Part shown: positions 2,183 through 64,000 of the stretch, in pieces
How positions within the stretch are numbered: the stretch's first letter is position 1
Layout: the number at the start of each line of letters is the position of its first letter
DNA from: Euglena gracilis
Taxonomy: Eukaryota
Direction: 5' to 3'
DNA length: 64,000 bases
NCBI GenBank assembly: GCA_039621445.1
Contig: CP154954.1
Coordinates: forward strand, 17,018,589 to 17,082,588
Position numbers and translations under genes: made by a program
Notes under the pieces: model-generated
The model's input: the letters and a program-made list of their open reading frames with translations, nothing else
Databases searched by the model: none
Told to the model about the DNA's origin: nothing

Positions 2183-2597
2183 CCCCCACCCCCTAGTCGT
2201 ATGACCGGGTTCCTGCAACCTGTGACCGGGGGGGGGGGGGTGGTCATAACACCCCCATAACCTGCAACCTGTGACCGGGGGGTGGTCATAGATGAGGGGG
2301 CGGTCGTAGAAGTGTGTGAAAACTGTCCCAAAATGGCAGATTTACCCCCCCCCAAATGTCCCATTTTTCAAAAATCCGGCGCTTCGCGCCGGCAGGGGGG
2401 ACCTTATTTTGGGGGGGTCCATTTCATGGATTTTTGCTCGGACCGGCCAGGGGGGGGGACTTATTTTTGGGGGTTAAATTTTTCGCAACCTGCAACCTGT
2501 GACCGGGGGGGGGTGGTCATAACACCCCCAAGACCTGCAACCTGTGACCGGGGGGTGGTCATAAATGAGGGGTGGTCGTACGACTAGGGGGGGGGGG
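2183..2597. mobile_element. Tc1/mariner-type MITE inserted in the non-LTR element
   Basis: TIR CCCCC(A)CCCCCTAGTCGTATGACC / GGTCGTACGACTAGGGGGGGGGGG, with TA duplicated at 2181-2182 and 2598-2599. Confidence 0.85.
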
Positions 2598-2640
2598 TAC
2601 AAGTGGGATGCGCCCCACAGCCCCCTACCAGGGCAGACGT

Positions 2641-2694
2641 GACGGACGGGGCAGCCTGCTCACCTGTGGATACGTAGAGGAGAATCCCGGACCA
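2641..2694 (+). other. 2A-like peptide 2: DGRGSLLTCGYVEENPGP (T2A-like)
   Basis: 16/18 identical to Thosea asigna T2A (EGRGSLLTCGDVEENPGP); directly precedes the RT-containing segment. Confidence 0.85.
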
Positions 2695-4752: not shown

Positions 4753-6826
4753 AGCAATGGCCAAAAGTTTTCAAAAGGCGTGAAATTTCAGTAAATTGAA
4801 ATTTGCACGGTTTTATTGCATTTTTCCATATTTTCATGAAATCTCAGAAAATTGAAATCTAAAAAATTTCAAAGCATTCGCGGCGATCGCGGACGGAAGG
4901 ACTTCCTAATTGGGTGTGTTCTCCCCTTGAAATTCGTTGTTTTTCTTTGTTTGGAACTCAGAATCCAACTATTTGAAGGATAAGGAATATATTGATGCAG
5001 TATTTATTGAACGTCGAAACAGGTGTGCCCCCGAAGGTGACTTTTGAAGAATTCTTCTCCTGGTCTTTTCTGGTGCATCTAGACCACTTTCAAAAAATTG
5101 CCATTTTTTTCAAAATACGCTCCGCTGGGTGACAATTTTGAGTGCCACCCTCATTTGCGCCTGGAGCAAAGCGTGAGAAAGGCCTCAGCAGCAATTCCAA
5201 AGAAATAAACTCCAAGTGGTTCCGCAATGTGTCTTTGTATGTAAAATTTTGAGATAATATTTCCTTCAAAAAAAATAATAAATTGATATTGCATTTTTGA
5301 AATTCCAGGCGCAATTGCGCCAGGACCAACACAGGGGGGCGCAGTTTTTGAGCACCATTCCCAAACATCATTCACCAAATTGCAACACAAAAAAATGCAT
5401 TTTCAAAAAATGGAAACTACAAAACACTTCAACTTTGAAGAAGAACAAACACTACCCTTCAAAAAATTGATTCAACTACTTCCCTTGCTGCTATTTTTAT
5501 TTTTCTGCAATCACCTGCTGGGGGGGGGGGGACATCAGGGCAGACCTTTTTTATACTCTTTCCCCCCTGACCTGGGCTGGCCGTGGCCGAAGGCAGGTCG
5601 GGGGGGGGGGTCAGGCTGGGCAGACTTTTTTAAAAACTCCTTCCCCCTGACCTGGGCTGGCCGAGGCCGAAGGCAGGTCGGGGGGGGGGGTCAGGCTGGG
5701 CAGACTTTTTTAAAACTCCTTCCCCCTGACCTGGTCTGGCCGAGGCCGAAGGCAGGTCGGGGGGGGGGGGGTTCTGGCTGAGCAGCAGAAAATACAGCTT
5801 TTTTTCGACCCAGCCAGTTGAGTTTCCAGATGACTGACCCGGGTCGTCATGGAGCCAATGGCGGATGTCATTTACAGCCATCTGGCATGTTCAGATGGGC
5901 CAGGTGGGGCTGTTTTAATGGATTCTTTTTGCATTTCACCCAGCAGTTTTGGAGTCGTTTGGGTTGTTTTGTCCACTCTGTGACCCGGGTTGCTGACCCC
6001 CAGGTTCAGGCGTTCAGTAGCACCGGAATAAGTTTATGTTGTTGTATCCTGCACAGTTTATAATGTGCCTCCACCAGGTTTTTGGTTTGGCAGAACCGAA
6101 GGCCCTGGGGGGGAGGGCATTTTTCTCTCTCCCAGCCGAAATTAGGCTGAAAGGATGCCAATTTCTGGACTGGGGGGGGGGGGCAGCATTTTTATCTCTC
6201 CCCGCCGAAATATGGCTGAAAGAATGCCAATTTCTGGACTGGGGGGGGGGGGCAGCATTTTTATCTCCCCCAGCAGGAATCAGGCCGAAAGGAAGCCAAT
6301 TTCTGGGCTGGGAGGGGGCAGCTCTTTTTGTCTCTCTACCTCCCCGAACCTGGGTCAGATGATGGCAGGCCGGGGGGGGGGGCAGCAAAAATACCCAGAA
6401 CCAAAGATTTGGGCTGTGGCTGATGCATTTTTACCTCCACCAGGTTTACGGTTGTACCGAACCGAAAACCCTGGGGGGGGGGGGCAGGAATTTAAACGGC
6501 CAGGATGAGAATGGCTGTGGCTGTGGCAGTGACAGTTTATTTTCTCAGAATTTTCCACAGTCGGTTGGCATAAAAAAATATCTCTCCTCTCAACCGTTTC
6601 GGGCTGGGTCAGCCCTCAACGATGGGGGGGGGGGGGCTGTGCGAAGGAATATTTTCCCAGAAGATTTCAGCCCAAAGCATAAACACCCCAGCCAGTTCGG
6701 TGACAAGAGCCCAGAACTGGGGGGGGGGGGGGCAGCCCGCAAGAAAACAGAATGGGGTTCCATTCCCTGACCTGATTTTTGGCTGTTTAGAGCCGAAATC
6801 GGGGGGGGGGGGTTCAGAATGAATTA

Positions 6827-6994
6827 CCATGCCCCCCCCAATATAAGACCCCCCCCCATATAAGACCCCCCCCTGGCCGGCCGAAGGCCGGCCCTTTGGC
6901 CGGGACCGACCCCCCAATATAAGACCCCCCACCATATAAGACCCCCCCCTAGGATTTTGGCTCCCGAGGGGGGGTCTTATATGGGGGGGCATGG
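6827..6994. mobile_element. TA-flanked MITE inside the LTR (copy at 21690-21859)
   Basis: TIR CCATGCCCCCCCA(A)TATAAGACCCCCC / GGGGGGTCTTATATGGGGGGGCATGG with TA on both sides. Confidence 0.8.
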
Positions 6995-6996
6995 TA

Positions 6997-7177
6997 CCAC
7001 CCCCCCTAAATGACCCCCCCCCCTAGATGACCCCCCTGGGGGGTCATCCAGGGGGGGTCATGGAGTAGAGCAATTTTTCAGTGGGAAAAGTATCCCCCCC
7101 CCCCAGATGACCCTCCCCCCCTAGATGACCCTTTGGGGGGTCCTGAAGCAACATCAATAGGGTCATTTAGGGGGGGG
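6997..7177. mobile_element. Second TA-flanked MITE abutting the first inside the LTR (copy at 21862-22044)
   Basis: TIR CCCCCCTAAATGACCC / GGGTCATTTAGGGGGG; shares the TA at 6995-6996, second TA at 7178-7179. Confidence 0.75.
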
Positions 7178-7788
7178 TATTTGCCCCCCTGATTTAGGCT
7201 CGTTCGGAGCCGAAGTTCGGGGGGGGGGCAAAATACAGAATTTAAAACACGTTGTCCCCTCTGCAGCGTCTTCCCATTTTTCCTATATTATGCTTCAACT
7301 TCCATCTCTCGATTGTCTATCCCAGGAACTCAAGTACTTTGCACAAACTCAATTTCGCTACAAGAATTCAATTGATTTGTTTGTGCTTCAATTCAATCTT
7401 TGCAAGCGGAGCGAGCGGTGTGACACGCACAAGCATGCACACAGCGGGGAATCAGGGAGGGGAAAAGCAAGTAGGGAGTCCACGGGCCGAGGTTGGGGAA
7501 ATTCCAGGTTTAACCCCGTTCCTAGCAACAGCCCAAAACACTCCGGGGGGTGGACCTGAGCCCACCCACCCCCTGCATTCGGTGTGTCCGGTTCCCCTCG
7601 AGGGGGCCGGGCAGGGTGGGGCGTGTGCCGAGACCACGGGAACTGGAGCCCTCCGGGTTGCGGGGGGGGGACAGTCCCCGGGGGGGATCGGGGCAAAACC
7701 TGCCGACGCACCCAGGAGTGGCTGACGGCCACGGAAATTTTGAAAATCGATCCTACGCCGGGGACCCCGAGGACGGGTTCCGCGGACA

Positions 7789-7800
7789 TGGTAGCAGAGG
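7789..7800 (+). promoter_or_regulatory. Primer-binding site complementary to the initiator tRNA-Met 3' end
   Basis: TGGTAGCAGAGG directly after the LTR-terminal CA; complementary to ...CCUCUGCUACCA. Confidence 0.9.
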
Positions 7801-7888: not shown

Positions 7889-10800
7889 ATGGGTGGAAAT
7901 ACTTCTCACACCATTTCAGATATGGCACATTCTTCGAATGAAAACCTGGGTGCACTTGTGTTAATTTCCCAGCCGGCTGCTGAGGAATTTACTTTCGGCA
8001 GGACACCAGGATTTTTCAGGAATTCTGGCCCAGATTTTTCTGGGGATGGGGATATTCAATTTTCTGGTTTGGTATCTCCCAGTGGCCCAAGAAATCTTGA
8101 GTTTACAAACCAGCCCACCGATATTCAGCAAATTGAGTGGAACCCGGTTACAACTTCAGATTCGACACCAGCATTTTTGAAGATTGCTGGAAACCCTGAT
8201 TTTTCACCAATGTATTTTCCAGGGACAGCGATTGTTAATTTTAACGGGGATCAGACCTGCAGTGGGGTAGCAGCACCCACTGGAGGGCTGGGTTTTGTGG
8301 ACTCCCGCATGCACTTTCAGCCAAATGAAAATCTTCCTTTACTCCCTGTCCCTCTGCCCCATCCTCTACATGGTCCCTGTTCAGCGGGTGCAACCATAGG
8401 GGAGGTCCAGGGGGTTTTCCAAGGGGATGAGCTAACGGATAAGGATATGATCCAAGCCCTGATCCAAGCCCAAGTTCCCTTGGATGTATTTTTAACAGAG
8501 GAGGGTGAGAGATATCCACGGGAGATGGTAAAGGCACGGGTGCAAGAGTGGCAGAAGGGTTTACACCCAGGGGGGGGGAGCCGTTGGAAGACCCGATGGA
8601 GGGCTCCACCAACCCCCTAATTCGAGGGAGGGGCACACCCCCATCTGATGAATCAGTGATGGAGGTGAAAAGACCCCACCAAGATCTGGGGGTGGGTGAT
8701 GCTCAGAAAGATGGGCAAACTGACATTTTTCTGAACAATGATTCTGAACAGCCAGCCCAGACCCAAATGGATTGTGGGGAGGAGGGCCCGGCTCCCCCAT
8801 ACCCATTTTGGGAGGAAGAAAATGAACGGTGGGGGTTGTGGGCCCAGGGGCTGTCAACTCAGCTTAATCAGATGAATGCCAGAGTTTCGAGTATGGAGGA
8901 GCAAGTGGTTCTGCGTGATGCACAGCCACTCGCTTATATATATATTGAAAAGTCTTTGGATGAGACGAGGGCACAAGTAGTGGAACACCTGGTTTTGGAG
9001 GGCATCAAATTATCAAATGCATTGGAGCAAAAGGCCGAGCAGATTTTGCTTCAATGCAGAAACAAAGTCGATCAACATATGCTGGAATTTTCTGCACAGC
9101 AGTAGGACCATATTTCCAACTTTGTTCAGCGGGCCGTGGCTGAACTCCAAATCCAAATGACCTGTGTCAGGTCAGAAAATAATTTGGTGCAACAGTTTGA
9201 AAGGAATTATCAAAAGGAGAGACAGAAAAATGAGAATTTGGAGAGAGGACTACAAGAAATCCAACAAGAGGTGAAAAGCTTTCAACAGGAGCAAATGAAG
9301 GAAATCAGATTGCTCCATGAAAAGCAGGATCAGCAAATCCTGACACTGGGTCAGCAATTTACGGTGCTCACCGATGCGTTTATACAACAAATTCATGGCA
9401 GGGTCCTGCATAATGAAGCTGTGCAGTCACAGGTCCAGCATAGTTTGATGCAAAGTATTGCTGGGGGGCAGCAATCGGCAGAAAAGGGGATCCATGATTT
9501 GGAGGGTGCTATGCGAGGTTTTTCGCTGGGACTCCAATCATGCTCATCCCAAACACAAAATCTGCAGGGGGCAGTTCAAAATGTTGAGAAAGGGGTTCAG
9601 TCTGCTTTGGGGCAAGTGGCCAACCAGTTTTTGTCATCAGAATTTTCAGCAGCAAGAATAAACGATAAGCTCCTCCAGGTTGAAAGAAACCTAAAGGAGA
9701 AATCGTCATCTTCCACAGTCGCAGTCCCAGCACCGGTTGTGGTGCCTGTAACTGTGAATGTGGAACCAGTAATAGCAGTGCAGAAACCGGCTGACCTTGT
9801 GCAGCCTGTTCCCGCACTAGCCACCCCTGAGATTGGTTTTGTTTTGGAACCACTTGATGAAGGTCCTACCCCATTGTTTTCAGGATCTTTTCCTTCCTTG
9901 CAAAGCGGGAATCAAGGTCCCACTTATTCCATTCGACCAGTTTCTGCGGGGGGTGGAACAGGGGGTCAGCACCATCCGGTTTTACCCCTGGGGGGTGACC
10001 TGGTGGTGTCAGAAATTGCCAAGTCGATAAGACCTCCCCGATTCGACGATAGGTCTCCTGATTGACAGAATTTTGAGGCAGATTGGGAAATGCATTGGCA
10101 GGCCATTTCCCTGGGGAGGGAATACGGGGAGGCAATGAAGCTGCAGATTTTCGAGTCCTGTTTGTGTGACAGTCTCAAACAGGAAATTAAATTTCTGCAA
10201 CGTTCAGGAGCAAAGCCAGGATTCACGCCGGTTTTTGCGCGGATCAAGGCGAGATATGCACCTGAAAATAATTTTGAGGCTAGGAGGACTTGGTATAACA
10301 TATCGTTGAAGACCCCCTGGAAAGACCACCCGGGCAGATTGGAATGATTTCTGGGTGAGGTTTATGTCAGCCCAGCTTTGCGTGAAGGATACATCTGCCG
10401 AGGAAGCAATTCGGTTGCTCCTCAACAGAGTTCCTGAATTTATATCAAAGTGGATTACTGAGGATTCTTGCATTAAAACACAGAAAAATCCCCGTGTCAG
10501 GATGTTTGCCCCACCTGATTTGTCAGATCAGGTGTTGAGCAACACAATTGTCAGTTTGGTTGGCACTCCCCCCAAGGCAGTGAAATCCATGGGAGGGGGG
10601 GAGTACATAGTGGCTTTTGACTCCAGGACTCCCATGGAAAGGTTGATCAATTTCAATGGGAGGCGGATTGCCAATTACCCCAGACCCCTGCAGATCGAAG
10701 GAATAGAGTGGAAAATCACCCTTGATGAAATTTTCAGGCTTGTGGATGACAAATTGTGGATCCGCGAAAGACAGGAGACGGTCCTGAATTTCAACGCACT

Positions 10801-10975
10801 CTTTTGCTCTGGGAAGGGGAGCAAGGGAGGCAAGGGCAAAGGCTTTTCAGATTGGGGGAAAGGGAAAGGCAAAGGGAAAGGGCCGAATGCCTCTCCTCAC
10901 CAGCCAGTGCAGGGTGAAAGGAAGGGCGGGGGCCCGGCCCAGCCCGCACCTGCTCAGCCACAGGATGCTAAGTAG
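7889..10975 (+). pseudogene. Gag-like region (long coiled coil plus capsid-like part), broken by stops/frameshifts
   Basis: Consecutive + ORFs 7550-8620, 8548-9105, 9136-10065, 10090-10347 and 10355-10975 between the PBS and pol; IRPPRFDDR..WEMHW motif; GKGK-rich basic tail. Confidence 0.65.
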
Positions 10976-11145
10976 GGGGGCCTTGGGTTTTGCGAGGGAG
11001 GGGGCAGGACCTCTGGCTGTCAGGACCCCTCCACAGTGAAATGTGCTAACCACCCCAACCCTAAATCGAACCCGAAATCTGCCTTGCACCTCTGCCCGTC
11101 GTCACCAACCGTTGAGTCAATTCCTCCAGTGTATCTGCCTTCCAA

Positions 11146-11985
11146 TTGTGGGAGTGCGGTGGCAGTGCCCCATTGACAGGGTTCATGGGGAGCCAGCCCA
11201 ACCACTCTAGATTTTCCCAGCTTTCTCCTCGCAATTTAAACGGTCAGCATGGTAAGGGGAAAGGTTTTGTGGGTGGCCCATCTCACCATCAGGACCCCCC
11301 ACAGGTGCCAGGAACCACACAGGCGGGTGGTTCCCAGAAAAGATTGAGCATGCTGGATCTGTTTTCTGGAACCAACAGCGTGGGAAATAAATTCTGGGAC
11401 CAAGGGTACGAAGTCATTTCCCAAGACATCCAACCCCACGGAAAACCCACGATTTGCAGGGATATTTTGGAGTGGGATTACAGGGAGTTTTCCAGCAATT
11501 ATTTCGACGTAATAGCGGCTGGCCCTCCCTGTGAAGACTACTCCAATGCTAAGGTTCAGAGGCCAAGGGATTTTGAAAAGGCTGATGCCCTGGTTCAAAG
11601 GACTCTTGAAATTATAGAGTACTTTCAGCCACGGTTTTGGTGGATTGAGAACCCCAGGTTTGGGTTTCTGCGATCCAGGGATTTTATGCAGGATTTGAAT
11701 CTCATCGATGTGGATTATTGCCAATTTTCTTGTTGGGGCTACCAGAAGCCAACAAGAATTTGGTGTTGTCCACGAATTGCGGCCCTCCCTAATTTTTTGT
11801 GTGATAAACAGACCTGTGAAAACCTGGTGGTAACCCCCTGGGGCACCAGGAGACACCGAGAAAGGCTGGGTGGAAATGAGATGAGTTTTTCACCCAAGCA
11901 AAAGGGGAGGATGCCTGGTGCATTGGTGGATTACCTGATGAGTGCACCCCCATTACGCAAGGGGCAAAATCATTCGGGGAGGTGA
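11146..11985 (+). CDS. DNA (cytosine-5)-methyltransferase domain within the LTR element
   Basis: Motif I LDLFSGTNSVG, DILEWDY, motif IV GPPCEDYS (11521-11532), motif VI WIENP (11641-11655), VDYCQF..YQKPTRIW; uninterrupted frame. Confidence 0.92.
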   Translation: MWECGGSAPLTGFMGSQPNHSRFSQLSPRNLNGQHGKGKGFVGGPSHHQDPPQVPGTTQAGGSQKRLSMLDLFSGTNSVGNKFWDQGYEVISQDIQPHGKPTICRDILEWDYREFSSNYFDVIAAGPPCEDYSNAKVQRPRDFEKADALVQRTLEIIEYFQPRFWWIENPRFGFLRSRDFMQDLNLIDVDYCQFSCWGYQKPTRIWCCPRIAALPNFLCDKQTCENLVVTPWGTRRHRERLGGNEMSFSPKQKGRMPGALVDYLMSAPPLRKGQNHSGR

Positions 11986-12300
11986 ACCTGATTAAGGCAG
12001 GTTTGCTTGAGTCCAGATTTTTGGAATATGCTGATCAGCCAATCAGATTGGTGACAGCTAACAATCAAGTAATGGATGGGGGAAACAAGAAGGTCACACT
12101 GGGGGTGACCTTTCGACAGAAGTTCAACGGGGAGTTTCTGCCAAATCTGGTCTCGTGCGAGACGGAATTTTATGAAGCATCCATGGAGGTGGATGCAATT
12201 CTGTCTTTTCCATGGATGTCCCAGAATCACATTGGCGTTTTCCCCCACCATAAAGCCTTGGCCATTGATGAACCGTATTTTGCTCTCCTGTACGGTTGGA
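11980..12300 (+). pseudogene. Retropepsin-like aspartic protease, catalytic D(T/S)G lost or degenerate
   Basis: EVNLIK...IRLVTANN...FYEASMEVDAILSFPWM; position upstream of RT. Confidence 0.6.
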
Positions 12301-12699
12301 CAGGAGAGAGGAAACAAAAGAGGAAACGTTGTGGGAAGGACCAAAGGAGACGTGTGAGGATGATCCGTGAGGAGGAACCACAAAGGTACGGAATCCCAAC
12401 ACAAGCTCCCGTTTCACAGGATTTTGACACTGAGTTTGAACAAATCCTGTGGAAAATGAAGTTGCAAGTGCCACCTGAAGGTCACAATGGTGACAGTGAA
12501 AAGCTCACACGGGCTGAGAGGAGGCGCATTGCCAAGGCGTTGCAGCACCTGGGCAATTCCAAGGCCATACGCAACATTGTTGAGGCACGTGAGGAGGAAA
12601 ATGTGGATCCCAGAATTCTTGACCTGCGAGAAAAAATTCAGAGGGATTATGACGGGGTGGTCTTTGACAAGGAACCGCTCAAGGACCCACCTGTCAGAG

Positions 12700-14030
12700 G
12701 CCCATATGGTCAAGGAAGGTGCCGTACCCACCCGAGCCAAACCTTTTCGCTTGCACGGGGAGAAGTTCGAGGCCCATTGCAAAGTGACAAGGGAATGGCA
12801 GGATCGGGGGTACATTGAAAGAATTCCTGAGGGGGTGGTCAGCGAATGGATGTCCAATACTTTTGTTGTTCCAAAAAAGGATGGTGACTGGCGAGGGGTG
12901 GTAGATATGTCCGAATTCCCAGACTCGGAGGATCTCATATCCACTCCCTGTGATTGAAGATTTGTTGGTGAAACAAGGTGGGAGGCAAATTTTTTCAATC
13001 ATGGATTTGCGGCAGGCCTTCCACCAGCAACCCTTACACCCGGAAAGTCGACCCACCACAGCTTGTTACACTCCACTGGGGGTTTTCCAGTGGAGGGTAA
13101 ATGTAATGGGTCTGACAAACGCCAGTCAACAGTTCCAACAGATGATGGAGGATGTTTTATCATCAGTGAGGGATGTAGCTGACCCCTTCATCGATGATAT
13201 CTTGGTTGGAACTCGGGTGGAGGAGGGGGAGGATCTCCTAGCAGCCCACGACAGGGACCTGAGACGGGTGCTAGAAGTCCTCAAGGATGCCAAATTGATC
13301 TGTGATGTCCGAAAGTGTAAGTTTTTTGTCAAGGGGGTTGCATTTTGCGGCCATGTTCTGGAGAACGGGACCCGTAGACCAGAACCTGGCAAGCTCAGGG
13401 CCATTGAGAAATGGCAAAGGCCACAGACGATCACGGCCCTTAGAGCATTTTTGGGTTTTACGAACTACTACAGTTCGTATGTCAAGGAGTATGCACGGGT
13501 TGTGTCGCGACTCCAAGACAAGTTGAAAATTCCACGCAGTGAGGGGAAAAAGGGATCCAAAAAACGAATCACGTGGGATAAGGAGGACGAGGAGGCATTT
13601 CAGGAAATCAAATCAAGGCTTTGTGGGGAGCTCATCTTGCAAAGGGTGAACCCCGACAAGCCTTTCGTCTTGAGAGCTGACGCAAGCCAATATGCAATAG
13701 GGGCTACGTTGGAGCAACTCACAGACGAGGATCGGGCACCAACGGTGGAGGATGTCTTGGCGAAAAAGACATCCCCTGTGGCGTTCATGAGCAGGAAGCT
13801 CACGGACAGCCAACGGAATTGGGTGCCGAGGGAGCAGGAAACATATGCCATAATAGCGGCCCTTCAAAAATGGGAGTCATGGATTGGCGGGCCCCTAGGC
13901 CGAAGGGCGCGATGGCACCAACTCCTGTCAAAATATGATTTGACAGTGGGTTACGTGCCTGGAAAGGACAACACCATTGCAGACGTCCTTTCCAGGTGGG
14001 CGCATCCTGCAAGTGAAGCCGTGAAGGATG
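12700..14030 (+). pseudogene. Gypsy RT + RNase H (frameshifts and small deletions)
   Basis: FVVPKKDGDWRGVVD, MDLRQAFHQ, MGLTNA, FIDD (13187-13198), LRAFLGFTNYY, RADASQYAIGA, SRKLT, NTIADVLSR. Confidence 0.92.
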
Positions 14031-14584
14031 TGAGTTGCCACGGCACGGCGCAGGACAAGGAAGACGTCATGGCTCTGATTCGTGAGGAGAAAAGGGAGGA
14101 GGCAAATTGCATGTGGGTTAGGCTCCGAGGGCCACCCACACAGCAAAATGCCTGGATTCGGGGTGTTACCACTCGGAGTGGTAAGGAGACGGGGACCCAG
14201 GACATAGGATTGGAAAGTGCACGAGAGGATGCCTCGTTTGTGGGGGATGTAGGAGGAACGGAACCCCTGCCAACCCCTGCAACACAAGGATCCGAGGAAG
14301 TTCAGCCCCTACATGTAGACCAATATGGGAATGCTCATTGGTCTACCGAGGAAGAGGTGAACGAGATTGCTGGACCTGTAGTGGATTCCTCAAGCACGGC
14401 CACCGAGGAGCTTGCAAACCCTGCAACCTCTTCCCACACGCTCTCTACCACACCAATTCCTAAACCCACACAGGTGGATTTCGGCAAACTCTGGGAGGTG
14501 AATTTGGTTTGGAATACGGGAAATGTCCGAGTTTTGGTCCCATTTTTACTCGAACCCAAACACCAGGGATGTCATGGCCCAAGG

Positions 14585-15815
14585 CAGGGTTCGGCGTTTT
14601 TTTCCGGTTCGAATAATTCGAATTTTTCGCAGTTGAATTATTCGAATTTTTCGTGAGGAAAATTTCCAAAAATTCCACAAGGTGAAGCACTGCGCACGGA
14701 AAACGTTTTTTTCCACCTCTGATGAGGTTCTCTCTCCCGTCCACGGCAAATCCTGCTCGCAGCAACAAGGTTTTTTTTTACCAGTTGAAGACCACCGCAA
14801 CTGCGTGGAAGCCCCTCGATAAAATGGAAAAAAAAACCGACCCCCTCCCCCACCAAGAGAGGCCCCCCTCCGATAAAATGAACAAAAAAGACCAAACACC
14901 CCCCCCCACCCATAGAAGTCCCCCCAGACCGTCCCGACCCACCGAAGCCAAAACCCCCTGCACCAAACCTTCTCCACATCTGGCCCAATGACCAGTGCGC
15001 CTGGCCCAAAACTGGCCAGGACAGCACAAATGTGGCCGAAAACTGGCCACCACCTCTGGCCCAAAACTGGCCAGCACAAATGTGGCCGAAAACTGCCCAG
15101 CAAAAATGCGGACGAAAACTGGCCACCAATCTGGCCCAAAACTGGCCAGCACAAATGTGGCCGAAAACTGGCCAGCACAAATGTGCGAAAACTGCCCCCA
15201 AAAACTGGCCACCACCTCTGACCCAAAACTGGCCAGCACCTCTGGCCCAAAACTGGCCATCACAACAAATGTGGCCGAAAACTGGCCAGCGCATCTGGCC
15301 TAAAAACTGGCCACCACATCTGGCCCAAAACTGGCCAGCATGTGGTCCAAAACGGGGTAGCACATCTGGCCCAAAGCTGGCCAGTTCTTTTGCCATTGAA
15401 AAGCACACAGGAACAGCAACAGGAACCAGAAAATACCGTTTTCTGGTTCCTGAAAAGGCCGGATGAAAACAAATGGAACAGTTTAGCAGGGACATGCTCA
15501 GGTCCAGATTACCAAGCATGATAAGCTTTAATAATTTCTTGTCAGTGAGATCTGCAACAGAGAAGAATGAACATTTCCCAAGAGAGAGTGTTCGGCAAAT
15601 TCATCATATGCTCTTGCATCCGGCTGGAATATTAGAGTTCTCTGCACAGTCCACAAAGTGCAAGTCTCTCACAGCAGCTTCGCCTGTTGTGGTAAATTAG
15701 GAATACCCAGATTCGCGTTTCGCGATTTTTGAAAAATTCGAAAAATTCGAATTTTTCGAATTTTTCAATTGAAATGAAAAATTCCCAAAAAAATTTCGAA
15801 ATTTGCCGAACCTTG
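14585..15815. mobile_element. hAT-like non-autonomous element inserted between RNase H and integrase; internal ~20-37 bp tandem repeats at ~14980-15385
   Basis: TIR CAGGGTTCGGC / GCCGAACCTTG; perfect 8-bp TSD GCCCAAGG; removal restores the frame ...MSWPKGVRVENG. Confidence 0.9.
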
Positions 15816-15823
15816 GCCCAAGG

Positions 15824-17546
15824 GTGTGAGGGTGGAGAATGGTTTCATGTATGTGGATGGTCTCCTGTGTGTTCCATGGAGCCTCCAAAACGCAGTGGTC
15901 AGGGATTTCCATGCATACCTTGGGCATGCCGGATTCCCACGGCTGTGGGATGCCATGTCCGTACGGTACAAGTGGGCGGACGAGGCATCGGTGAAAAAGT
16001 TCGCCAAGGTGGTGATGGGTGAGTGTGAGACCTGCCAGGCCTGCCAAAGACCCAGATTCTTGGAAGGCCCTTTGGAACCCACTCCCATCCCACCCCAGGC
16101 GATGGTTTCAGTTGCCTTGGACATTTTCGACATGCCACCTGTTCAGCATGAAGGGACCCTCCATAATGCCATTGTCTTGTGCGTAGACAGGCATAGTGGG
16201 TGGGTTGTGGCTGTCCCATGTAAGAAACAGGGCCTTACAGGGGGCAGGGTGGCAAAAATGATGGTTGCTCACCAATGGCGACCTTTTGGAGTCCCGAGTG
16301 TAGTAACGACGGACCAGGGGATGTGCTTTTCTGGGCATAAGGCACGCTTTCTCTCAGGCGTATTTTCATAACACCAATGGACGGGCTGAGAGAGCGGGCC
16401 AGCAACTCATCGAGGGAATCCGCAAGATTCAGATCGATGAGCGGCTTACATGGGTGGAAGCTCTCCCACAGGTTCTGGATAGGCTGCATGACACCCCGGG
16501 GGAGGGGGGCCTGTCTCCCTACCAAATTCTGTTTGGTAGGGAAAGACCTTTGGGAGGGATTCCCAGGGAGCCTCTTTTTGAGTGTGAGGAGGCAAATTCA
16601 TTTTTTCAAGAGGATGAAGGAAATTGATCAAGTGGTGGCAAAACGGCTCAACGATTTGCAGGGGGTGGGGCGGGACACGGGGGGGACACGGGGGGGGGGG
16701 ACACTGGGGGGACACGGGGGAAACATGCCTCTTTTCGGGACCTTCTGGGACGAAATTTGCGACTTTTTGAGGGACCAAAAATTCATTTCACATTGACCCC
16801 GAGCCAAGCTCCAGGCCACACTAGGTGAAAAAAAAGGATTGTGGGTGGGGGAAAGTCAAATGGCCTTGAGAATCCATTAAAACCCATGGAAAATGATGCC
16901 AAACAGCTAAAAATTCATGCTGTATGTTGCCTTGGCCACCTTCTAGGGCCCCCCTGAAGTGCGGGACACGGGGGGGACACGGGGGGGGGGACACGGGGGG
17001 GGGGGGGACACGGGGATCACACCCCCGCACATTCAGCAATCCTCCCAAGTCAATGTGGGGAGGAATGTCTTGAGTGACCAGCAGGTTGGGGCAAAGGTGT
17101 GGTACCTGCGACCCCCCAATGCAGGTGACAAGCTAGATTCCAAGTGGCTAGGACCGGGAGTGGTAGTCGCAAGGGAGGGGGAGAGCTCATATGTCGTGGA
17201 GATAAAGCCAGGGCACCGGCTGAAGGCTCCACGACGATCATTAAAAGTGTACGTGGATGACACTTTCGGAGGTAACCCCCTTCCCTTGTATTATCACAAG
17301 CGAACGGTCCGGGATCCGGACGCGGAGCCGGACGAGTGGATCACAGAAGAAATATTGAGCCACCGCAGGACACCCCAGGGCACCTGGGAATTTAAAACAA
17401 AATGGAAAGGGTCAGATAAGGTGACGTGGGAGCCCACAGGAAACTTTTTCTCCCGGTACAATGCTGATTTAGTAAAGTATTGCCAGGAGAAACGGCTGGG
17501 TTTGGATTTGACCAAACATCTCTCCCCTACTCCAACCACAGAGTGA
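15824..17546 (+). pseudogene. Integrase (HHCC, DDE core) with C-terminal chromodomain
   Basis: FHAYLGHAG..CETCQAC; VALDIFD; TTDQG; GRAER; SPYQILFG; KLDSKWLGP; chromodomain EWITEEILSHRR...EFKTKWKG...TWEP (~17334-17480). Confidence 0.9.
16661..17026. mobile_element. MITE with 3-bp TSD inserted in integrase (PIF/Harbinger-like?)
   Basis: GGGGGTG...CACCCCC termini; GCA duplicated; removal restores NDLHIQQS in frame. Confidence 0.8.
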
Positions 17547-18408
17547 GGTGTGGGGGGGGGGGCAAGTTGGATTTCTACAGGTGGTGGACTCCCGAAAGTT
17601 TTCCTGGACCCTCGCTCCTTGTTGTGTTGCAAGGCAAGGGTAAGGGTGGCAAGGGCTAGGGCAAGGAGATTGAACGAGGCATGGGCAAGGGATATGGCGA
17701 GGTCAAGGAGAGACCAACGTGGACGCGGTGCCTGGGGCGGTGCTTGGAGTGGCGGTATTGCTAACCCCAAAGCCGGAGATATCCCACTTTGTGGGATAGT
17801 GTACCCTATGACTGCTAGGAGGGGCAACGTTTTCACCACCCGACCTTCTTCACCTGGGTCGAGGTGAAGTTGGGAGGGGGTTTACAAAAGTGGGATTTGA
17901 GTGTGTCCGACTAAGGGTCGCAAGGGAGGGGGTGTTGGCTGTTTGGACAGCCACGCTCCAGCCCAGAACAGGCTCCGGAAGTGAAAGTTGGGAAACGGCC
18001 GAGTGGCGCCCTAAATTGGACATCTTTGGATAGCGCTTGGGAAGGCGCATCCAATGATACGGGGGGCTGGCATTGGAATTGCAGTTTTCCAGGTGCCATC
18101 CCCCAGATTTTTTCCAAAATAAGAGATCCCAGCTTGGTAAGAAAGGAGCCTGTGGACGCGCGGACCAAATCCCCGCCAATTGGAAGAGAGTCCAACACAC
18201 AAACACACAGATTTGGACTCAGGGTATATGGTTCAGCCATAAACCCTAGTCATGAGGGTTGGGATCTTGCCAAAAGGAGACTGTGGATGATCAGTGGGTT
18301 GGACAGGTTGGCCACAGGGTCTAGAGGTTCAAGGCCTCTAGACTAACCTTTTCCCTCACAAACACCCCCTGAAGGCCTCCAGTGTAGCTGGGAGTCCTGA
18401 AGGGAGGT

Positions 18409-18640
18409 TTTGAGGGGAGATTTTGGACGTCCACAGGGTTTAGACCTGTGGATTGTTCAGAAACTCACCCCGGAAAGCACAAGGGTGGTTTTGAGGGGAG
18501 ATTTTGGACGTCCACAGGGTTTAGACCTGTGGATTGTTCGGAAACTCGCCCTGGAAAGCACAAGGGAGGTTTTGGGGGGAGGTTTTGGACGTCCACAGGG
18601 TTTAGACCTGTGGTTTGTTCAGAAACTCGCCCTGAAAAGC
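18409..18640 (+). repeat. ~81-bp tandem repeat, ~3 copies
   Basis: TTTTGGACGTCCACAGGGTTTAGACCTGTGG recurring at an 81-bp period. Confidence 0.85.
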
Positions 18641-19604: not shown

Positions 19605-22600
19605 TGTATAAAACCCTGAATTAAGGCTGTTTCGTGCCGAATCCAGGGTGTGACAGACCAATTATTTTTTCCCCAACCCTGAAATTTGGCTGGCTTGCCG
19701 AATTCGGGGGGGGGACAACATTAAACTCCCCCACCACAGATTTACGGCTGTGGACCGATAATTTGGGTTTAGGGGACAGGAATAATTGTTATTTTTTCCC
19801 TCCTCCGAAACCTGGGCCGATGGCAGGTCGGGGGGGGGGATGCCAATCCCTCCCCAGCAGAAGTGCGGCTGGAAGTATGCCGAATTCTGGGCTGGGGGGG
19901 GGCATCAGGGCAGACCTTTTTTATACTCTTTCCCCCCTGACCTGGGCTGGCCGTGGCCGAAGGCAGGTCGGGGGGGGGGGTCAGGCTGGGCAGACTTTTT
20001 TAAAAACTCCTTCCCCTTGACCTGGGCTGGCCGAGGCCGAAGGCAGGTCGGGGGGGGTCAGGCTGGGCAGACTTTTTTAAAACTCCTTCCCCCTAACCTG
20101 GGCTGGCCGAGGCCGAAGGCAGGTTGGGGGGGGGGGGTTAGGCTGGGCAGACTTTTTTATGCTCTTTTCCCCTGACCTGGGCTGGCTGAGGGCAGGTCGG
20201 GGGGGGGGGGTTCTGGCTGAGCAGCAGAAAATACAGCTTTTTTTCGACCCAGCCAGTTGAGTTTCCAGATGACTGACCCGGGTCGTCATGGAGCCAATGG
20301 CGGATGTCATTTACAGCCATCTGGCATGTTCAGATGGGCCAGGTGGGGCTGTTTTAATGGATTCTTTTTGCATTTCACCCAGCAGTTTTGGAGTCGTTTG
20401 GGTTGTTTTGTCCACTCTGTGACCCGGGTTGCTGACCCCCAGGTTCAGGCGTTCAGTAGCACCGGAATAAGTTTATGTTGTTGTATCCTGCACAGTTTAT
20501 AATGTGCCTCCACCAGGTTTTTGGTTTGGCAGAACCGAAGGCCCTGGGGGGGAGGGCATTTTTCTCTCTCCCAGCCGAAATTAGGCTGAAAGGATGCCAA
20601 TTTCTGGACTGGGGGGGGGGCAGCAATTTTATCTCTCCCCGCCGAAATATGGCTGAAAGAATGCCAATTTCTGGACTGGGGGGGGGGCAGCATTTTTATC
20701 TCCCCCAGCAGGAATCAGGCCGAAAGGAAGCCAATTTCTGGGCTGGGGGGGGGGCAGCTCTTTTTGTCTCTCTACCTCCCCGAACCTGGGTCAGATGATG
20801 GCAGGCCGGGGGGGGGGGCAGCAAAAATACCCAGAACCACAGATTTGGGTTGTGGCTGATGCATTTTTACCTCCACCAGGTTTACGGTTGTACCGAACCG
20901 AAAACCCTGGGGGGGGGCAGGAATTTAAACGGCCAGGATGAGAATGGCTGTGGCTGTGGCAGTGACAGTTTATTTTCTCAGAATTTTCCACAGTCGGTTG
21001 GCATAAAAAAATATCTCTCCTCTCAACCGTTTCGGGCTGGGTCAGCCATAGCTGGCGTTTTTTTTGTTTTTTTTTTTAAAAAAAACGTTTTTTTTGTTTT
21101 TTATTAAAAAAAACGAGCAAAAAAAACGGACAAAAAAACAAAGGGGAAAATGATGGTCCAAATTTTGCCTTTGATCGCAAGGGTGAACCAATCTTAGCTC
21201 AAATGACTTGAAAACCAATGATTTTGGTTGTCTTCAACAAGAATGGTCAAAATAGGGCATTTTTCTGCCATTTTGGGATTTTTCAACTTGAAACGTCCCA
21301 AATTTGGTGTCTTTCTCTGACCGAGGATGGGCAAAAAAAGCAAAAATTAAAGGCAAAATTTTTTTTTGCCCTGGACCCTCAATGGCGTTTTTTTTGTTTT
21401 TTTTAAAAAAAAACATGTTTTTTTTAAAAAAAACGTGTTTTTTTTGACTTCGTTTTAAACGAAGTGCCAGCTATGGGGTCAGCCCTCAACGATGGGGGGG
21501 GGGGCTGTGCGAAGGAATATTTTCCCAGAAGATTTCAGCCCAAAGCATAAACACCCCAGCCAGTTCGGTGACAAGAGCCCAGAACTGGGGGGGGGGCAGC
21601 CCCGCAAGAAAACAGAATGGGGTTCCATTCCCTGACCTGATTTTTGGCTGTTTAGAGCCGAAATCGGGGGGGGGGTTCAGAATGAATTACCATGCCCCCC
21701 CCCATATAAGACCCCCCCCATATAAGACCCCCCCCTGGCCGGCCGAAGGCCGGCCCTTTGGCCGGGACCGACCCCCCAATATAAGACCCCCCACCATATA
21801 AGACCCCCCCCCCTAGGATTTTGGCTCCCGAGGGGGGGTCTTATATGGGGGGGGCATGGTACCACCCCCCCTAAATGACCCCCCCCCCCCTAGATGACCC
21901 CCCTGGGGGGTCATCCAGGGGGGGTCATGGAGTAGAGCAATTTTTCAGTGGGAAAAGTATCCCCCCCCCCTAGATGACCCTCCCCCCCTAGATGACCCTT
22001 TGGGGGGTCCTGAAGCAACATCAATAGGGTCATTTAGGGGGGGGTATTTGCCCCCCTGATTTAGGCTCGTTCGGAGCCGAAGTTCGGGGGGGGGGCAAAA
22101 TACAGAATTTAAAACACGTTGTCCCCTCTGCAGCGTCTTCCCATTTTTCCTATATTATGCTTCAACTTCCATCTCTCGATTGTCTATCCCACGAACTCAA
22201 GTACTTTGCACAAACTCAATTTCGCTACAAGAATTCAATTGATTTGTTTGTGCTTCAATTCAATCTTTGCAAGCGGAGCGAGCGGTGTGACACGCACAAG
22301 CATGCACACAGCGGGGAATCAGGGAGGGGAAAAGCAAGTAGGGAGTCCACGGGCCGAGGTTGGGGAAATTCCAGGTTTAACCCCGTTCCTAGCAACAGCC
22401 CAAAACACTCCGGGGGGTGGACCTGAGCCCACCCACCCCCTGCATTCGATGTGTCCGGTTCCCCTCGAGGGGGCCGGGCAGGGTGGGGCGTGTGCCGAGA
22501 CCACGGGAACTGGAGCCCTCCGGGTTGCGGGGGGGGACAGTCCCCGGGGGGGATCGGGGCAAAACCTGCCGACGCACCCAGGAGTGGCTGACGGCCACGG

Positions 22601-22654
22601 AAATTTTGAAAATTGATCCTACGCCGGGGACCCCGAGGACGGGTTCCGCGGACA
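19605..22654 (+). repeat. 3' LTR (start tentative)
   Basis: Homology to the 5' LTR from ~19891 to the terminal CA at 22654; candidate TGT start at 19605 after a poly-G tract (possible PPT). Confidence 0.8.
21047..21475. mobile_element. hAT-like MITE present only in the 3' LTR
   Basis: TIR CATAGCTGGC / GCCAGCTATG; 8-bp TSD GGGTCAGC; empty site in the 5' LTR at ~6606-6613. Confidence 0.93.
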
Positions 22655-23006
22655 ATGGTTCCAAGGGCTTCAAATTAGGTTCCCATACATTACTTTGATT
22701 TTGGCTTCATTTTGGAGATATTTTGAAAATTGACATTTTTTTTGGCCGAAATGGCAGAGTCCAAAGGGGGGCTTAAAAAGGGGGGCGGGCCGATCCTACC
22801 CAGTTTAGACCCCCCCCGCGTGAATAACTCGGGCCGCTGCTCCTGCCAACCCTTCACTGCGGCTAGATGGAGATGGGCTCGTCGAGGCCAAGGATTACAC
22901 CTGTTGCTGGCACCCATCCTCCTCCTGCGGTGACACCCTCGGGATTCGGGGGGGCTCACCACTGTTCATGGATCGCCTTTGTCCCGAGGCCATGCTCTCT
23001 CCAAGG

Positions 23007-32200: not shown

Positions 32201-64000
<31,800 letters not shown>

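What the first reader, a model, noticed from the sequence alone, without database searches (positions are those of the whole stretch)
11146..11985. Gypsy LTR retrotransposon encoding its own C5-cytosine DNA methyltransferase
Seen: an uninterrupted DNMT domain (FSG, PPC, ENP, DYC..KPTRIW) between gag and protease, co-oriented with them and inside the LTRs. No TIR/TSD marks it as a secondary insertion. Known: DNMT-bearing retrotransposons have been reported in dinoflagellates and charophyte algae. Inference: this may be an independent capture in a euglenid-like lineage. The compact motif set resembles DNMTs of large DNA viruses/Polinton-like elements more than DNMT1/3. Self-methylation of the new DNA copy is a plausible role.
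Basis: partly seen in the sequence, partly recalled or inferred. Interest (0 to 1): 0.85.

Follow-up and report, generated by a model that had tools for sequence, protein, structure and literature searches.

The report
Retrotransposon carrying its own cytosine methyltransferase
A jumping gene of the retrovirus-like kind carries a small DNA cytosine methyltransferase of a type otherwise seen in small algal viruses; this copy is dead, but many intact relatives keep the enzyme fused into their polyprotein, and a closely related case was described in a 2026 preprint.

Summary
ORF 11116-11985 (+) encodes a compact C5-cytosine DNA methyltransferase: Pfam PF00145 at 31.5 bits (cut-off 22), an AlphaFold model at pLDDT 94, and DNMT3/DNMT1/M.HhaI fold matches. 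It lies between a gag-like region and protease-RT-RNase H-integrase-chromodomain, inside LTRs of about 2.3 kb.

It is not a secondary insertion. In relatives the DNMT is in frame with protease and RT (L025, L004, L002, L005, P0148). All 36 retroelement-linked DNMTs plus the window form one clade (98 SH-aLRT). The catalytic Cys, ENP and FxG are kept in 37 of 37.

The nearest non-transposon relatives are stand-alone genes of about 205-215 aa on polinton-like or giant-virus-like contigs (Tetraselmis virus 1, TM 0.81). The donor direction is unresolved (AU p 0.81).

This copy is dead. It has stops and frameshifts in gag, a deletion at 11979/11980 that removes the protease active site, two private insertions and an integrase frameshift. 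The family is highly repeated in public runs.

A May 2026 preprint reports DAM+DNMT+chromodomain "EpiLTRs" in Euglena and Cymbomonas. DAM-fused relatives sit in the same DNMT clade, so this is probably a DAM-less variant of that kind, not an independent capture. The host could not be named. Self-methylation of the cDNA is plausible but untested.

The parts
5518..7788 (+). 5' LTR (about 2.27 kb); its start is uncertain because it lies in an approximately 80-nt tandem array
   Evidence: BLASTN of the window against itself: 5521-6614 matches 19970-21047 (95.8%) and 6606-7792 matches 21476-22659 (98.2%). Ends ...GGACA. Tandem units at 5524-5767.
7789..7800 (+). Primer-binding-site-like TGGTAGCAGAGG directly after the 5' LTR
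   Evidence: Read from the sequence. Complementarity to the 3' end of initiator tRNA-Met is recalled, not tested (no tRNA gene in the window).
8509..10975 (+). gag-like region, named by position only. In-frame stops at 9103-9105 and 10063-10065; frame change near 10310-10347.
   Evidence: ORF list; no Pfam family; no similarity to relatives' upstream ORFs.
11116..11985 (+). Open C5-cytosine DNA methyltransferase ORF (289 codons). The domain is about 11341-11955, with motif I FSG at 11362-11370, catalytic PPC at 11524-11532, ENP at 11647-11655 and QKPTRIW at 11743-11763.
11979..11980 (.). Deletion junction private to this copy. The DNMT-protease linker and the protease N-terminus with DTG are missing, and the terminal stop of the DNMT ORF lies just behind it.
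   Evidence: Protease homology to L025 starts at nt 11979. The alignment with L025, L004, P0015, P0025 and P0008 shows a missing stretch of about 50-90 residues that includes LIDTGA. An X15 contig matches 11609-11979 and then runs on unlike the window. An X18 contig has 157 loose letters before 11980.
11979..12818 (+). Aspartic protease remnant (frame 0) without its catalytic DTG
   Evidence: tblastn with the L025 protease: 53% identity, E 1e-33; alignment. No Pfam hit for the window ORF.
12905..14574 (+). Reverse transcriptase (about 12938-13357) and RNase H (about 13574-13891)
   Evidence: RVT_1 8.4e-18, RT_RNaseH_2 4.8e-24. 70.6% identical to the L025 RT.
14575..15813 (.). 1239-nt low-complexity insertion that other family copies lack
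   Evidence: Contigs in all 4 laid runs join 14574 to 15814.
15778..16627 (+). Integrase (zinc-binding H2C2 and core), broken by a 1-base frameshift at 16321
   Evidence: Integrase_H2C2 2.5e-5, rve 5.6e-5. Two ORFs in different frames. Contigs of X1 and X18 lack one base at 16321.
16658..17026 (.). 369-nt stretch absent from other copies
   Evidence: A joint from 16657 to 17027 is seen in all 4 runs.
17346..17438 (+). Chromodomain-like C-terminal module of integrase
   Evidence: Weak in the window (Chromo E 0.035, below the cut-off). Clear in relatives aligned to it: L025 4.6e-9, P0148 1.8e-6 and P0162 9.7e-8. tblastn of the window ORF against L025 gives 40% identity, E 1e-40.
19887..22659 (+). 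3' LTR, with an extra approximately 428 nt at 21048-21475

Best explanation
The window holds one decayed copy of a very abundant chromovirus-like Ty3/gypsy LTR retrotransposon. In its lineage a compact C5-cytosine DNA methyltransferase (about 205 residues) is a built-in domain of the polyprotein, placed just upstream of the protease.

Shown:
- The DNMT ORF is open and keeps every catalytic motif.
- In relatives the same domain is translated in one frame with protease, RT, RNase H, integrase and chromodomain.
- Retroelement-borne DNMTs form a single clade.
- The nearest relatives outside it are stand-alone DNMT genes of polinton-like or giant-virus-like contigs.
- This copy itself cannot transpose: protease active site deleted, stops and frameshifts, two insertions.

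Inferred: in intact copies the DNMT is made as part of Gag-Pol and travels into the virus-like particle with RT and integrase. There it methylates cytosines of the newly made double-stranded cDNA, or of the fresh insertion. The new copy then enters an already CpG-methylated host genome carrying the host's default mark. Together with chromodomain-guided integration this would lower harm and recognition.

The DNMT module was probably exchanged once between a small dsDNA virus lineage and an LTR retrotransposon. It was then shuffled within Pol, before or after the protease, with or without a DAM adenine methylase.
For: Identity of the domain:
- Pfam PF00145 at 31.5 bits against a cut-off of 22.
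- Model with pLDDT 94.4.
- DNMT3B/3A, DNMT1, M.HhaI and M.HaeIII fold hits.

Built-in, not inserted:
- L025 ORF 3-2837: DNMT-PR-RT-RNase H in one frame, then IN-Chromo.
- L004: DNMT-PR in frame. L002: PR-DNMT in frame.
- L005: Dam-PR-DNMT-RT in one ORF.
- P0148: one 2513-aa ORF with DNMT 625-822, DTGA at 920, then RT, RNase H, IN and Chromo.
- 44 of 250 retrieved proteins and 6 of 163 loci have PR, RT, IN or DAM beside the DNMT.

One clade:
- FastTree, 153 rows: all 36 retro-context rows plus the window fall in a 90-row clade (99, SH-like) that holds 0 of 18 IMG/VR rows.
- IQ-TREE quick, 91 rows: a 41-row set with all 36 retro rows has 98 SH-aLRT.

Constraint:
- F83, C139, E178, P180, C202, C229, C234 and H247 are kept in 37 of 37 retro+window rows, although these are only about 40-55% identical and synonymous sites are saturated.

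Family abundance and DNMT in other copies:
- 37,397 contig pieces of run X1 lay on the element at 90-99% identity.
- At the three listed DNMT places 8-15 X1 contigs, 2-3 X3 contigs and 1 X15 contig cover the site.

Viral kin:
- 516 of 544 IMG/VR candidates confirmed.
- Stand-alone ORFs of 204-215 aa.
- Capsid_N and D5/AEP primase neighbours.
- Tetraselmis virus 1 DNMT: E 3e-20, TM 0.81.
- PLV repertoires include a cytosine methylase (PMC9356565, passage read).

Methylated host:
- CpG observed/expected is 0.55 across the window, with a TpG+CpA excess of 1.16.

Precedent for function:
- Per the abstract and Discussion read (section 11), retrotransposon DNMTs methylated CG de novo in a heterologous (yeast) assay. 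cDNA self-methylation was proposed there (PMC5890265; abstract and sections 6, 9 and 11 read, section 10 not read).
Against: - No activity, target sequence or substrate was tested; the cDNA-methylation step is pure inference.
- This copy is dead, and its three listed private changes in the DNMT are all non-synonymous (R76, Q103, F227 where all other contigs read K, L, V). So the ORF being open here may be luck.
- Selection within the host's own family could not be measured. No sequences of sister copies were obtainable, and the dN/dS pairs among metagenome loci were saturated.
- Motifs IX and X and a normal target-recognition domain were not identified. PDB sequence similarity is weak (best DNMT1 hit E 1e-3).
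- Virus-to-transposon direction is not shown. A tree holding the 48 non-transposon, non-phage rows together is not rejected (p-AU 0.81). The preprint places its EpiLTR DNMTs sister to eukaryotic DNMT4, which I could not test.
- Expression evidence is weak: contigs in one metatranscriptome, which may hold DNA.
Confidence: 0.7

Rival explanations
1. The DNMT is a secondary event in this copy only: a nested insertion of a foreign gene, or an assembly chimera. On this reading it is not a real component of the retrotransposon.
For: The DNMT ORF is in a different frame from both neighbours, with stops on each side. No start codon lies at its beginning. The element has other private insertions at 14575-15813 and 16658-17026.
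Against: Five metagenome loci and dozens of database proteins have the same DNMT in frame with PR, RT or IN. Contigs from four runs cover the DNMT region. The frame break downstream is explained by a private deletion at 11979/11980. No joint that skips the DNMT appeared among the 15 listed (133 were not shown).
Confidence: 0.03
2. The domain is catalytically competent but does not methylate the element's own DNA. It might act on RNA or RNA-DNA hybrids in the particle, as proposed for SymbioLINE-Dnmt. It might methylate host DNA in trans to perturb silencing. Or it might serve mainly as a nucleic-acid-binding or structural module of Gag-Pol.
For: The domain is unusually small, with a minimal target-recognition region and a conserved Cys/Cys/Cys/His cluster (C202, C229, C234, H247: 37 of 37). 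Sequence similarity to characterised DNA enzymes is weak. It sits next to gag, where nucleic-acid-binding functions usually sit. De Mendoza et al. could not show DNA methylation for the LINE-borne DNMT and suggested RNA (PMC5890265, section 11 read).
Against: The fold matches DNA C5-methyltransferases (DNMT3, DNMT1, M.HhaI) and not the RNA-acting families specifically. The closest kin are stand-alone genes of dsDNA viruses and phages annotated as DNA methylases. PC, ENP and the motif VIII-like arginine are conserved.
Confidence: 0.2
3. The DNMT module came from a cellular eukaryotic DNMT (the DNMT4-related origin proposed for EpiLTRs), or went from retrotransposons into viruses. It did not go from a virus into a retrotransposon.
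For: The preprint's tree places Euglena and Cymbomonas EpiLTR DNMTs sister to DNMT4 with 100% bootstrap for the EpiLTR group (10.64898/2026.05.21.726589, section 8 read; its Supplementary Fig. 2D was not seen). My AU test does not reject reciprocal monophyly of the transposon and viral groups (p 0.81).
Against: With phage compact DNMTs as outgroup, the free trees put viral and metagenome rows as a basal grade. The viral forms are the simple stand-alone state and are very numerous. The prokaryote scan found 0 confirmed relatives, but with one narrow pattern only. I had no eukaryotic DNMT reference sequences, so this rival is open rather than weakened.
Confidence: 0.35

Closest known systems
EpiLTRs of Euglena gracilis and Cymbomonas tetramitiformis (Fernandez-Moreno et al., bioRxiv 10.64898/2026.05.21.726589, May 2026; abstract, sections 7 and 8 and passages read; supplements not seen)
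   Same: Ty3/gypsy-like LTR retrotransposons with a chromodomain and a C5-DNMT in the coding region. Relatives of the window's DNMT are fused to DAM domains and fall in the same DNMT clade as the window (L005 Dam 1e-7, P0053 Dam 3e-13, P0146, P0160). A DAM-bearing retroelement lies next door in the window (439-4780).
   Different: The window's element has no DAM between its LTRs. Its DNMT sits between gag and protease, whereas in Cymbomonas it is at the 3' end of pol. I could not see the Euglena domain order. Identity of the two DNMT clades was not tested directly, because no sequences were available. The preprint roots its clade next to DNMT4 and does not mention viral relatives in the parts I read.
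KnitGypsy-Dnmt3 of Klebsormidium nitens, with SymbioDIRS-Dnmt3 and SymbioLINE-Dnmt of Symbiodinium (de Mendoza et al. 2018, PMC5890265; sections 6, 9 and 11 read)
   Same: Retrotransposons with a catalytically conserved C5-DNMT inside their ORFs. The proposed role is methylation of retrotranscribed cDNA. KnitGypsy is also a gypsy element with the DNMT in Pol.
   Different: Those DNMTs are of the Dnmt3 family or a Symbiodinium-specific orphan lineage, and sit in DIRS, LINE or a gypsy with a DIRS-like repeat arrangement. Here the DNMT is a compact type of about 205 aa whose sequence kin are viral stand-alone genes. The element has ordinary direct LTRs. The Foldseek top hits to DNMT3 have only 14-20% identity, and family membership was not tested by phylogeny.
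Compact cytosine methylases of polinton-like viruses, giant viruses of algae (e.g. Tetraselmis virus 1, UniProt A0A2P0VN45) and Bastillevirinae Bacillus phages
   Same: Same size, fold and motif set. 32-46% identity to IMG/VR genes. TM 0.81 and 35% identity to the TetV-1 protein. About 30% identity to phage orf172-type DNMTs over 92% of the domain.
   Different: These are stand-alone genes of dsDNA viruses (204-215 aa ORFs), presumably acting on viral genomes. In the window's lineage the domain is fused into a retroelement polyprotein. The retroelement forms make their own clade.

Membership tests
C5-cytosine DNA methyltransferase (Pfam PF00145) | Profile match above the curated threshold | tested here: met
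   31.5 bits against a cut-off of 22, E 1.7e-7, but only residues 109-180 are aligned.
C5-cytosine DNA methyltransferase (Pfam PF00145) | Catalytic motifs: I (FxGxG, AdoMet binding), IV (PC, nucleophile Cys), VI (ENV/ENP), VIII (Q/K-x-R-x-R-like). Motif names are recalled. | tested here: met
   FSG 83-85, PPC 137-139, ENP 178-180 and QKPTRIW 210-216 are present. F83, C139, E178 and P180 are kept in 37 of 37 retroelement rows.
C5-cytosine DNA methyltransferase (Pfam PF00145) | Methyltransferase fold with the catalytic-loop architecture of DNA C5-MTases | tested here: met
   Model pLDDT 94.4. Foldseek hits DNMT3B/3A, DNMT1, M.HhaI and M.HaeIII, probability 1.00, TMq 0.46-0.63.
C5-cytosine DNA methyltransferase (Pfam PF00145) | Motifs IX/X and a target-recognition domain; DNA methylation activity | not testable with these tools
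   The C-terminal 60 residues are conserved (GG..M.F....K.R.P..L..YL) but were not assigned to motifs. Activity needs an assay.
Ty3/gypsy LTR retrotransposon, chromovirus type | Two direct LTRs flanking the coding region, with a PBS after the 5' LTR | tested here: met
   LTRs are 95.8-98.2% identical. TGGTAGCAGAGG lies directly after the 5' LTR. The tRNA match is recalled.
Ty3/gypsy LTR retrotransposon, chromovirus type | Pol order PR-RT-RNase H-IN | tested here: met
   PR remnant at 11979-12818, RT/RNase H at 12905-14574, IN at 15778-16627. The same order is intact in L025 and P0148.
Ty3/gypsy LTR retrotransposon, chromovirus type | Chromodomain at the integrase C-terminus | tested here: inconclusive
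   Window: Chromo E 0.035, 14.5 bits, below the cut-off of 25.1. The homologous region of L025 scores 4.6e-9, and those of P0148 and P0162 score 1.8e-6 and 9.7e-8.
Ty3/gypsy LTR retrotransposon, chromovirus type | Target-site duplication flanking the LTRs | tested here: not met
   The flanks read ...CACCTGC before and ATGGTTCC after the LTRs, with no matching 4-6-mer. The 5' boundary is uncertain because of tandem repeats, so this is weak evidence.
EpiLTR (DAM + DNMT + chromodomain LTR retrotransposon) | DAM adenine methyltransferase domain within the same element | tested here: not met
   No Dam hit in the ten + strand ORFs scanned between 7526 and 17546. tblastn with two DAM domains hits only 1447-1830, outside the LTRs.
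EpiLTR (DAM + DNMT + chromodomain LTR retrotransposon) | DNMT belonging to the EpiLTR DNMT clade | not testable with these tools
   The preprint's sequences and supplements were not available. Indirect support: DAM-fused DNMTs (L005, P0053, P0146, P0160, P0181, P0183, P0205) fall inside the window's clade.
Dnmt3-type retrotransposon DNMTs (KnitGypsy-Dnmt3, SymbioDIRS-Dnmt3) | Phylogenetic placement within eukaryotic Dnmt3 | not testable with these tools
   No reference Dnmt3 sequences could be brought in. The structural top hits are DNMT3A/B but at 14-20% identity, while sequence kin at 32-46% are viral.
PLV/giant-virus compact cytosine methylase | Stand-alone gene in a dsDNA virus genome | tested here: not met
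   The window's gene lies inside an LTR retroelement, and 0 of 80 IMG/VR loci show retroelement context. It is homologous but forms a separate clade.

The most novel reading that the evidence does not exclude
A single ancient exchange between polinton-like or giant viruses and a chromovirus gave rise to a widespread, still active lineage of 'self-methylating' LTR retrotransposons. The lineage is present in several protist groups and in many freshwater and marine metagenomes. In it a minimal virus-type C5-DNMT is a fixed Pol domain that has been shuffled around the protease and combined with, or separated from, a DAM adenine methylase. The Euglena/Cymbomonas EpiLTRs would then be only the DAM-bearing tip of this lineage. 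Its DNMT would be viral rather than DNMT4-derived.
Probability: 0.4. Interest if true: 0.65.

Novelty: new variant of a known kind. Interest (0 to 1): 0.5.

Why it matters
Cytosine methylation is normally the host's weapon against transposons, so a transposon that carries its own DNMT reverses the usual roles.

Such elements are already known from Symbiodinium, Klebsormidium and, since 2026, Euglena and Cymbomonas. This window adds four points that could be followed up:
- A DAM-less form exists with the DNMT at the gag/protease boundary.
- The retroelement-borne DNMTs found here form one clade, with at least four domain arrangements across many environmental eukaryotes.
- Their closest relatives outside transposons are the small cytosine methylases of polinton-like and algal giant viruses. 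This suggests gene flow between dsDNA viruses and retroelements and questions a DNMT4-related origin.
- The enzyme is only about 205 residues with a conserved Cys3His cluster, so it is a convenient minimal DNMT for biochemistry.

None of this changes the general picture established in 2018. The function remains untested.

Tried and rejected
**Host identification**
- No genome is held for the window.
- No earlier notes exist for this genome or sequence.
- Rfam found no family and ARAGORN found no tRNA in the window.
- Run organisms are coded.
- A recalled spliced-leader motif gave 0 matches within 3 mismatches, which says nothing either way.
- Cluster look-up of ten homologues gave no accessions or organism names.

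**Other copies in the window**
- There are none.

**dN/dS**
- Among metagenome loci, the transposon pairs above 55% amino-acid identity (WIN-L025, L005-L011) were saturated at synonymous sites (pS 0.86-0.92).
- The L001-L003 figures were inconsistent: amino-acid identity 0.75 but pN 0.33, probably a frameshifted HSP.
- The one close pair (L036/L037: dN 0.032, dS 0.078, 139 codons) has no proven transposon context.
- These figures were not used as evidence.

**Searches that added little**
- The PDB sequence search with the family profile gave only weak hits: a generic methyltransferase at 7e-4 and DNMT1 at 1e-3.
- The prokaryote genome scan returned 29 pattern matches and 0 confirmed. Only one narrow pattern was used, so this is not evidence of absence.
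- The Atlas search gave only generic hits of about 210 aa, labelled viral or archaeal DNMT clusters.
- Pfam on seven further flank ORFs found nothing.

**Viral nesting**
- The free trees suggested that the transposon clade is nested in a viral grade. The AU test did not reject viral monophyly (p 0.81), so I do not claim a viral donor.

**Expression**
- Contigs of a leaf-litter metatranscriptome (X18, share 0.18) lie on gag, PR and RT at about 93-98% identity.
- An RNA library can hold DNA and the share is small, so this shows neither transcription nor habitat.
- Depth across bins cannot be used to rank parts.
Full report
**What is there**

On the + strand an ORF runs from 11116 to 11985 (289 codons).
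- Pfam PF00145 matches above its curated threshold: 31.5 bits against 22, E 1.7e-7, though only over residues 109-180.
- An AlphaFold2 model built on 43 aligned homologues is confident: pLDDT 94.4, pTM 0.89.
- Foldseek places the model with DNMT3B/3A, DNMT1, M.HhaI and M.HaeIII at E 6e-9 to 1e-7 and TMq 0.46-0.63.
- The whole-library HMMER search found 3086 proteins at E<=1e-3, 1484 at E<=1e-10 and 203 at E<=1e-30.

**The element around it**

- Direct repeats 5518-7792 and 19887-22659 are 95.8-98.2% identical.
- The 5' repeat ends in ...GGACA and is followed at once by TGGTAGCAGAGG. I recall this as complementary to the 3' end of initiator tRNA-Met.
- Downstream of the DNMT lie a protease remnant (from 11979), RT and RNase H (12905-14574; RVT_1 8e-18, RT_RNaseH_2 5e-24), integrase (15778-16627) and a chromodomain-like tail.
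- The chromodomain is weak here (E 0.035) but clear in the homologous region of relatives (L025 4.6e-9).
- The 'gag' (8509-10975) is named by position only. It has no Pfam family and no similarity to relatives.
- No target-site duplication was found. The LTR 5' ends lie in an approximately 80-nt tandem array, so the exact start is uncertain.

**This copy is dead**

- The gag frame has stops at 9103-9105 and 10063-10065 and a frame change near 10310-10347.
- Protease homology begins abruptly at nt 11979. An alignment with five relatives shows that the linker of about 50-90 residues and the protease N-terminus, including LIDTGA, are missing.
- Public-run contigs break at the same place. One X15 contig matches 11609-11979 and then runs on unlike the window. 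An X18 contig has 157 loose letters before 11980.
- So the stop that closes the DNMT ORF most likely comes from a private deletion.
- Other copies also skip 14575-15813 (1239 nt; all four laid runs) and 16658-17026 (369 nt; all four runs). They lack one base at 16321, which is the integrase frameshift.
- Within the DNMT, the three listed places where all other contigs differ from the window are all non-synonymous. The window has R76, Q103 and F227 where the others read K, L and V. L103 is the family-conserved residue.

**The DNMT belongs to the element**

Laying contigs of four runs showed a very abundant family. 37,397 pieces of X1 lay on the element at 90-99% identity. Several distinct contigs cover the DNMT: 8-15 in X1, 2-3 in X3 and 1 in X15 at the three listed places.

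Related DNA from metagenomes shows the same domain in frame with the retroelement enzymes:
- L025 ORF 3-2837 reads DNMT-protease-RT-RNase H, followed by integrase-chromodomain.
- L004 reads DNMT-protease.
- L002 reads protease-DNMT.
- L011 reads protease-DNMT (one frameshift)-RT-RNase H-integrase-chromodomain.
- L005 reads Dam-protease-DNMT-RT in one ORF.

P0148 is a single 2513-residue ORF with DNMT 625-822, DTGA at 920, then RT, RNase H, integrase and chromodomain. This is the intact analogue of the window's order. By BLAST, 44 of 250 retrieved proteins and 6 of 163 loci have protease, RT, integrase or DAM beside the DNMT.

**Relatives outside retroelements**

- 516 of 544 candidate stretches in IMG/VR, and 292 of 383 in the metagenome collection, encode a relative. 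The 80 loci kept from each are mostly 32-46% identical (up to 56% among the metagenome loci).
- None of the 80 IMG/VR loci kept shows retroelement context.
- There the gene is a stand-alone ORF of 204-215 aa in the six loci inspected (L082, L086, L085, L047, L024, L145); in L091 and L096 the ORFs are 293 and 249 aa.
- Its neighbours include D5/AEP primase-helicases and an NCLDV/PLV-type capsid protein.
- 41 of 160 loci (31 IMG/VR, 10 metagenome) carry a homologue of that capsid gene.
- The best viral structure match is the putative cytosine DNMT of Tetraselmis virus 1: 218 aa, E 3e-20, TM 0.81, 35% identity.
- A paper on Tetraselmis polinton-like viruses lists a cytosine methylase in the typical PLV repertoire (PMC9356565, passage read).
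- Compact phage DNMTs are about 30% identical.

**Trees**

- With two phage sequences as outgroup, FastTree on 153 rows puts all 36 retro-context rows and the window in one 90-row clade (99, SH-like) without any of the 18 IMG/VR rows.
- I had removed 42 of 195 near-full-length domains as more than 80% identical duplicates.
- For IQ-TREE (quick, LG+C20 PMSF) I kept 91 rows: the window and P0001, all 36 retro, all 18 IMG/VR, 14 of 26 metagenome loci chosen at random, 19 context-less proteins that were basal in the first tree, and 2 phage rows.
- That tree gives a 41-row set (36 retro, window, 3 context-less proteins, L001) with 98 SH-aLRT.
- The free trees show viral rows as a basal grade. But an AU test does not reject holding the 48 non-transposon, non-phage rows together (p 0.81). 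That constrained tree was even 27 log-likelihood units better than the short free search.
- So a single origin of the retroelement DNMTs is supported. The direction of transfer is not.

**Constraint**

F83, C139, E178, P180, C202, C229, C234 and H247 are kept in 37 of 37 retro+window rows. These rows are only about 40-55% identical, and synonymous sites between them are saturated. This argues for long-term purifying selection on catalysis. A proper dN/dS within the host's own family could not be done.

**Prior work**

De Mendoza et al. 2018 (PMC5890265; sections 6, 9 and 11 read) described SymbioLINE-Dnmt, SymbioDIRS-Dnmt3 and KnitGypsy-Dnmt3, and proposed methylation of the cDNA.

Fernandez-Moreno et al. 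(bioRxiv 10.64898/2026.05.21.726589; abstract, sections 7 and 8 and passages read) describe 'EpiLTRs' in Euglena gracilis and Cymbomonas tetramitiformis. These are LTR elements with a chromodomain, a DAM and a DNMT. Their DNMTs form one group sister to DNMT4.

How the window relates to that report:
- DAM-fused relatives fall in the window's DNMT clade, so the window's DNMT is probably of that group.
- The window's element has no DAM between its LTRs.
- A separate DAM-bearing retroelement lies just upstream at 439-4780.
- I could not see the preprint's supplements or sequences, so clade identity and the DNMT4 placement remain untested.

**Host**

The host is unknown.
- The window is repeat-rich, about 50% G+C, and CpG-depleted: observed/expected 0.55, with TpG+CpA at 1.16. 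This fits a CpG-methylated genome.
- A DAM-retroelement next to a DNMT-chromovirus matches what the preprint describes for Euglena.
- That is a resemblance, not an identification.

**Verdict**

The reading as a DNMT-encoding gypsy element with a virus-like DNMT is supported. 'Independent capture' is not supported. The function is inferred only. I rate it a new variant of a known kind, of moderate interest.

Noticed in passing
window 439-4780 (+): This is a second retroelement just upstream of the 5' LTR. ORF 439-1653 has a Dam adenine-methylase match (PF05869, 8e-8) and similarity to DAM domains of DNMT-bearing elements (1447-1830, E 6e-7). ORF 2569-3333 contains a 2A-like VEENPGP at 2674-2694. 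ORF 3251-4780 has an RT (RVT_1, 2e-12). No recombinase or integrase was found. It may be a DIRS-like DAM element, possibly the one the gypsy copy inserted into.
   Followed up: partly
window 14575-15813: This is the 1239-nt low-complexity insertion between RNase H and integrase that other family copies lack. The inserted sequence is itself among the most abundant stretches in the laid runs.
   Followed up: partly
window 21048-21475 and 23298-23397: The 3' LTR carries about 428 extra nt that are absent from the 5' LTR. Part of it (21133-21232) recurs at 83% identity 2.2 kb downstream, so it may be a small dispersed repeat.
   Followed up: no
whole window: CpG is depleted (observed/expected 0.55; 0.35 within the DNMT ORF) and TpG+CpA is in excess at 1.16. 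This fits a host genome with heavy CpG methylation. Long G and C homopolymer runs occur throughout.
   Followed up: partly
DNMT residues C202, C229, C234, H247 (nt about 11719-11859): A Cys-Cys-Cys-His set in and after the motif VIII region is kept in 37 of 37 retroelement rows. The three Cys are also kept in nearly all viral rows and in both phage rows; H247 is kept in all viral rows but is a gap in both phage rows. It may be a zinc site that replaces a normal target-recognition domain. The model's geometry was not checked.
   Followed up: no
window 5524-5767, 19894-20133 and 18388-18700: Tandem repeats of about 80 nt lie at the 5' ends of both LTRs, with one more unit in the 3' LTR. A threefold repeat of about 81 nt lies between the chromodomain and the 3' LTR.
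   Followed up: no
window 58802-59491 (+): The ORF has a short match to the C-terminal domain of 3-hydroxyacyl-CoA dehydrogenase (PF00725, 1.8e-8, residues 152-198). It may be an exon of a host gene.
   Followed up: no
related proteins and loci: P0162; P0053, P0029, P0049; L005, P0146, P0160; L002, L011: The DNMT occupies at least four positions in related polyproteins: before the protease, after the protease, directly before a DAM, and in a protein with integrase-chromodomain downstream. This points to repeated domain shuffling.
   Followed up: partly
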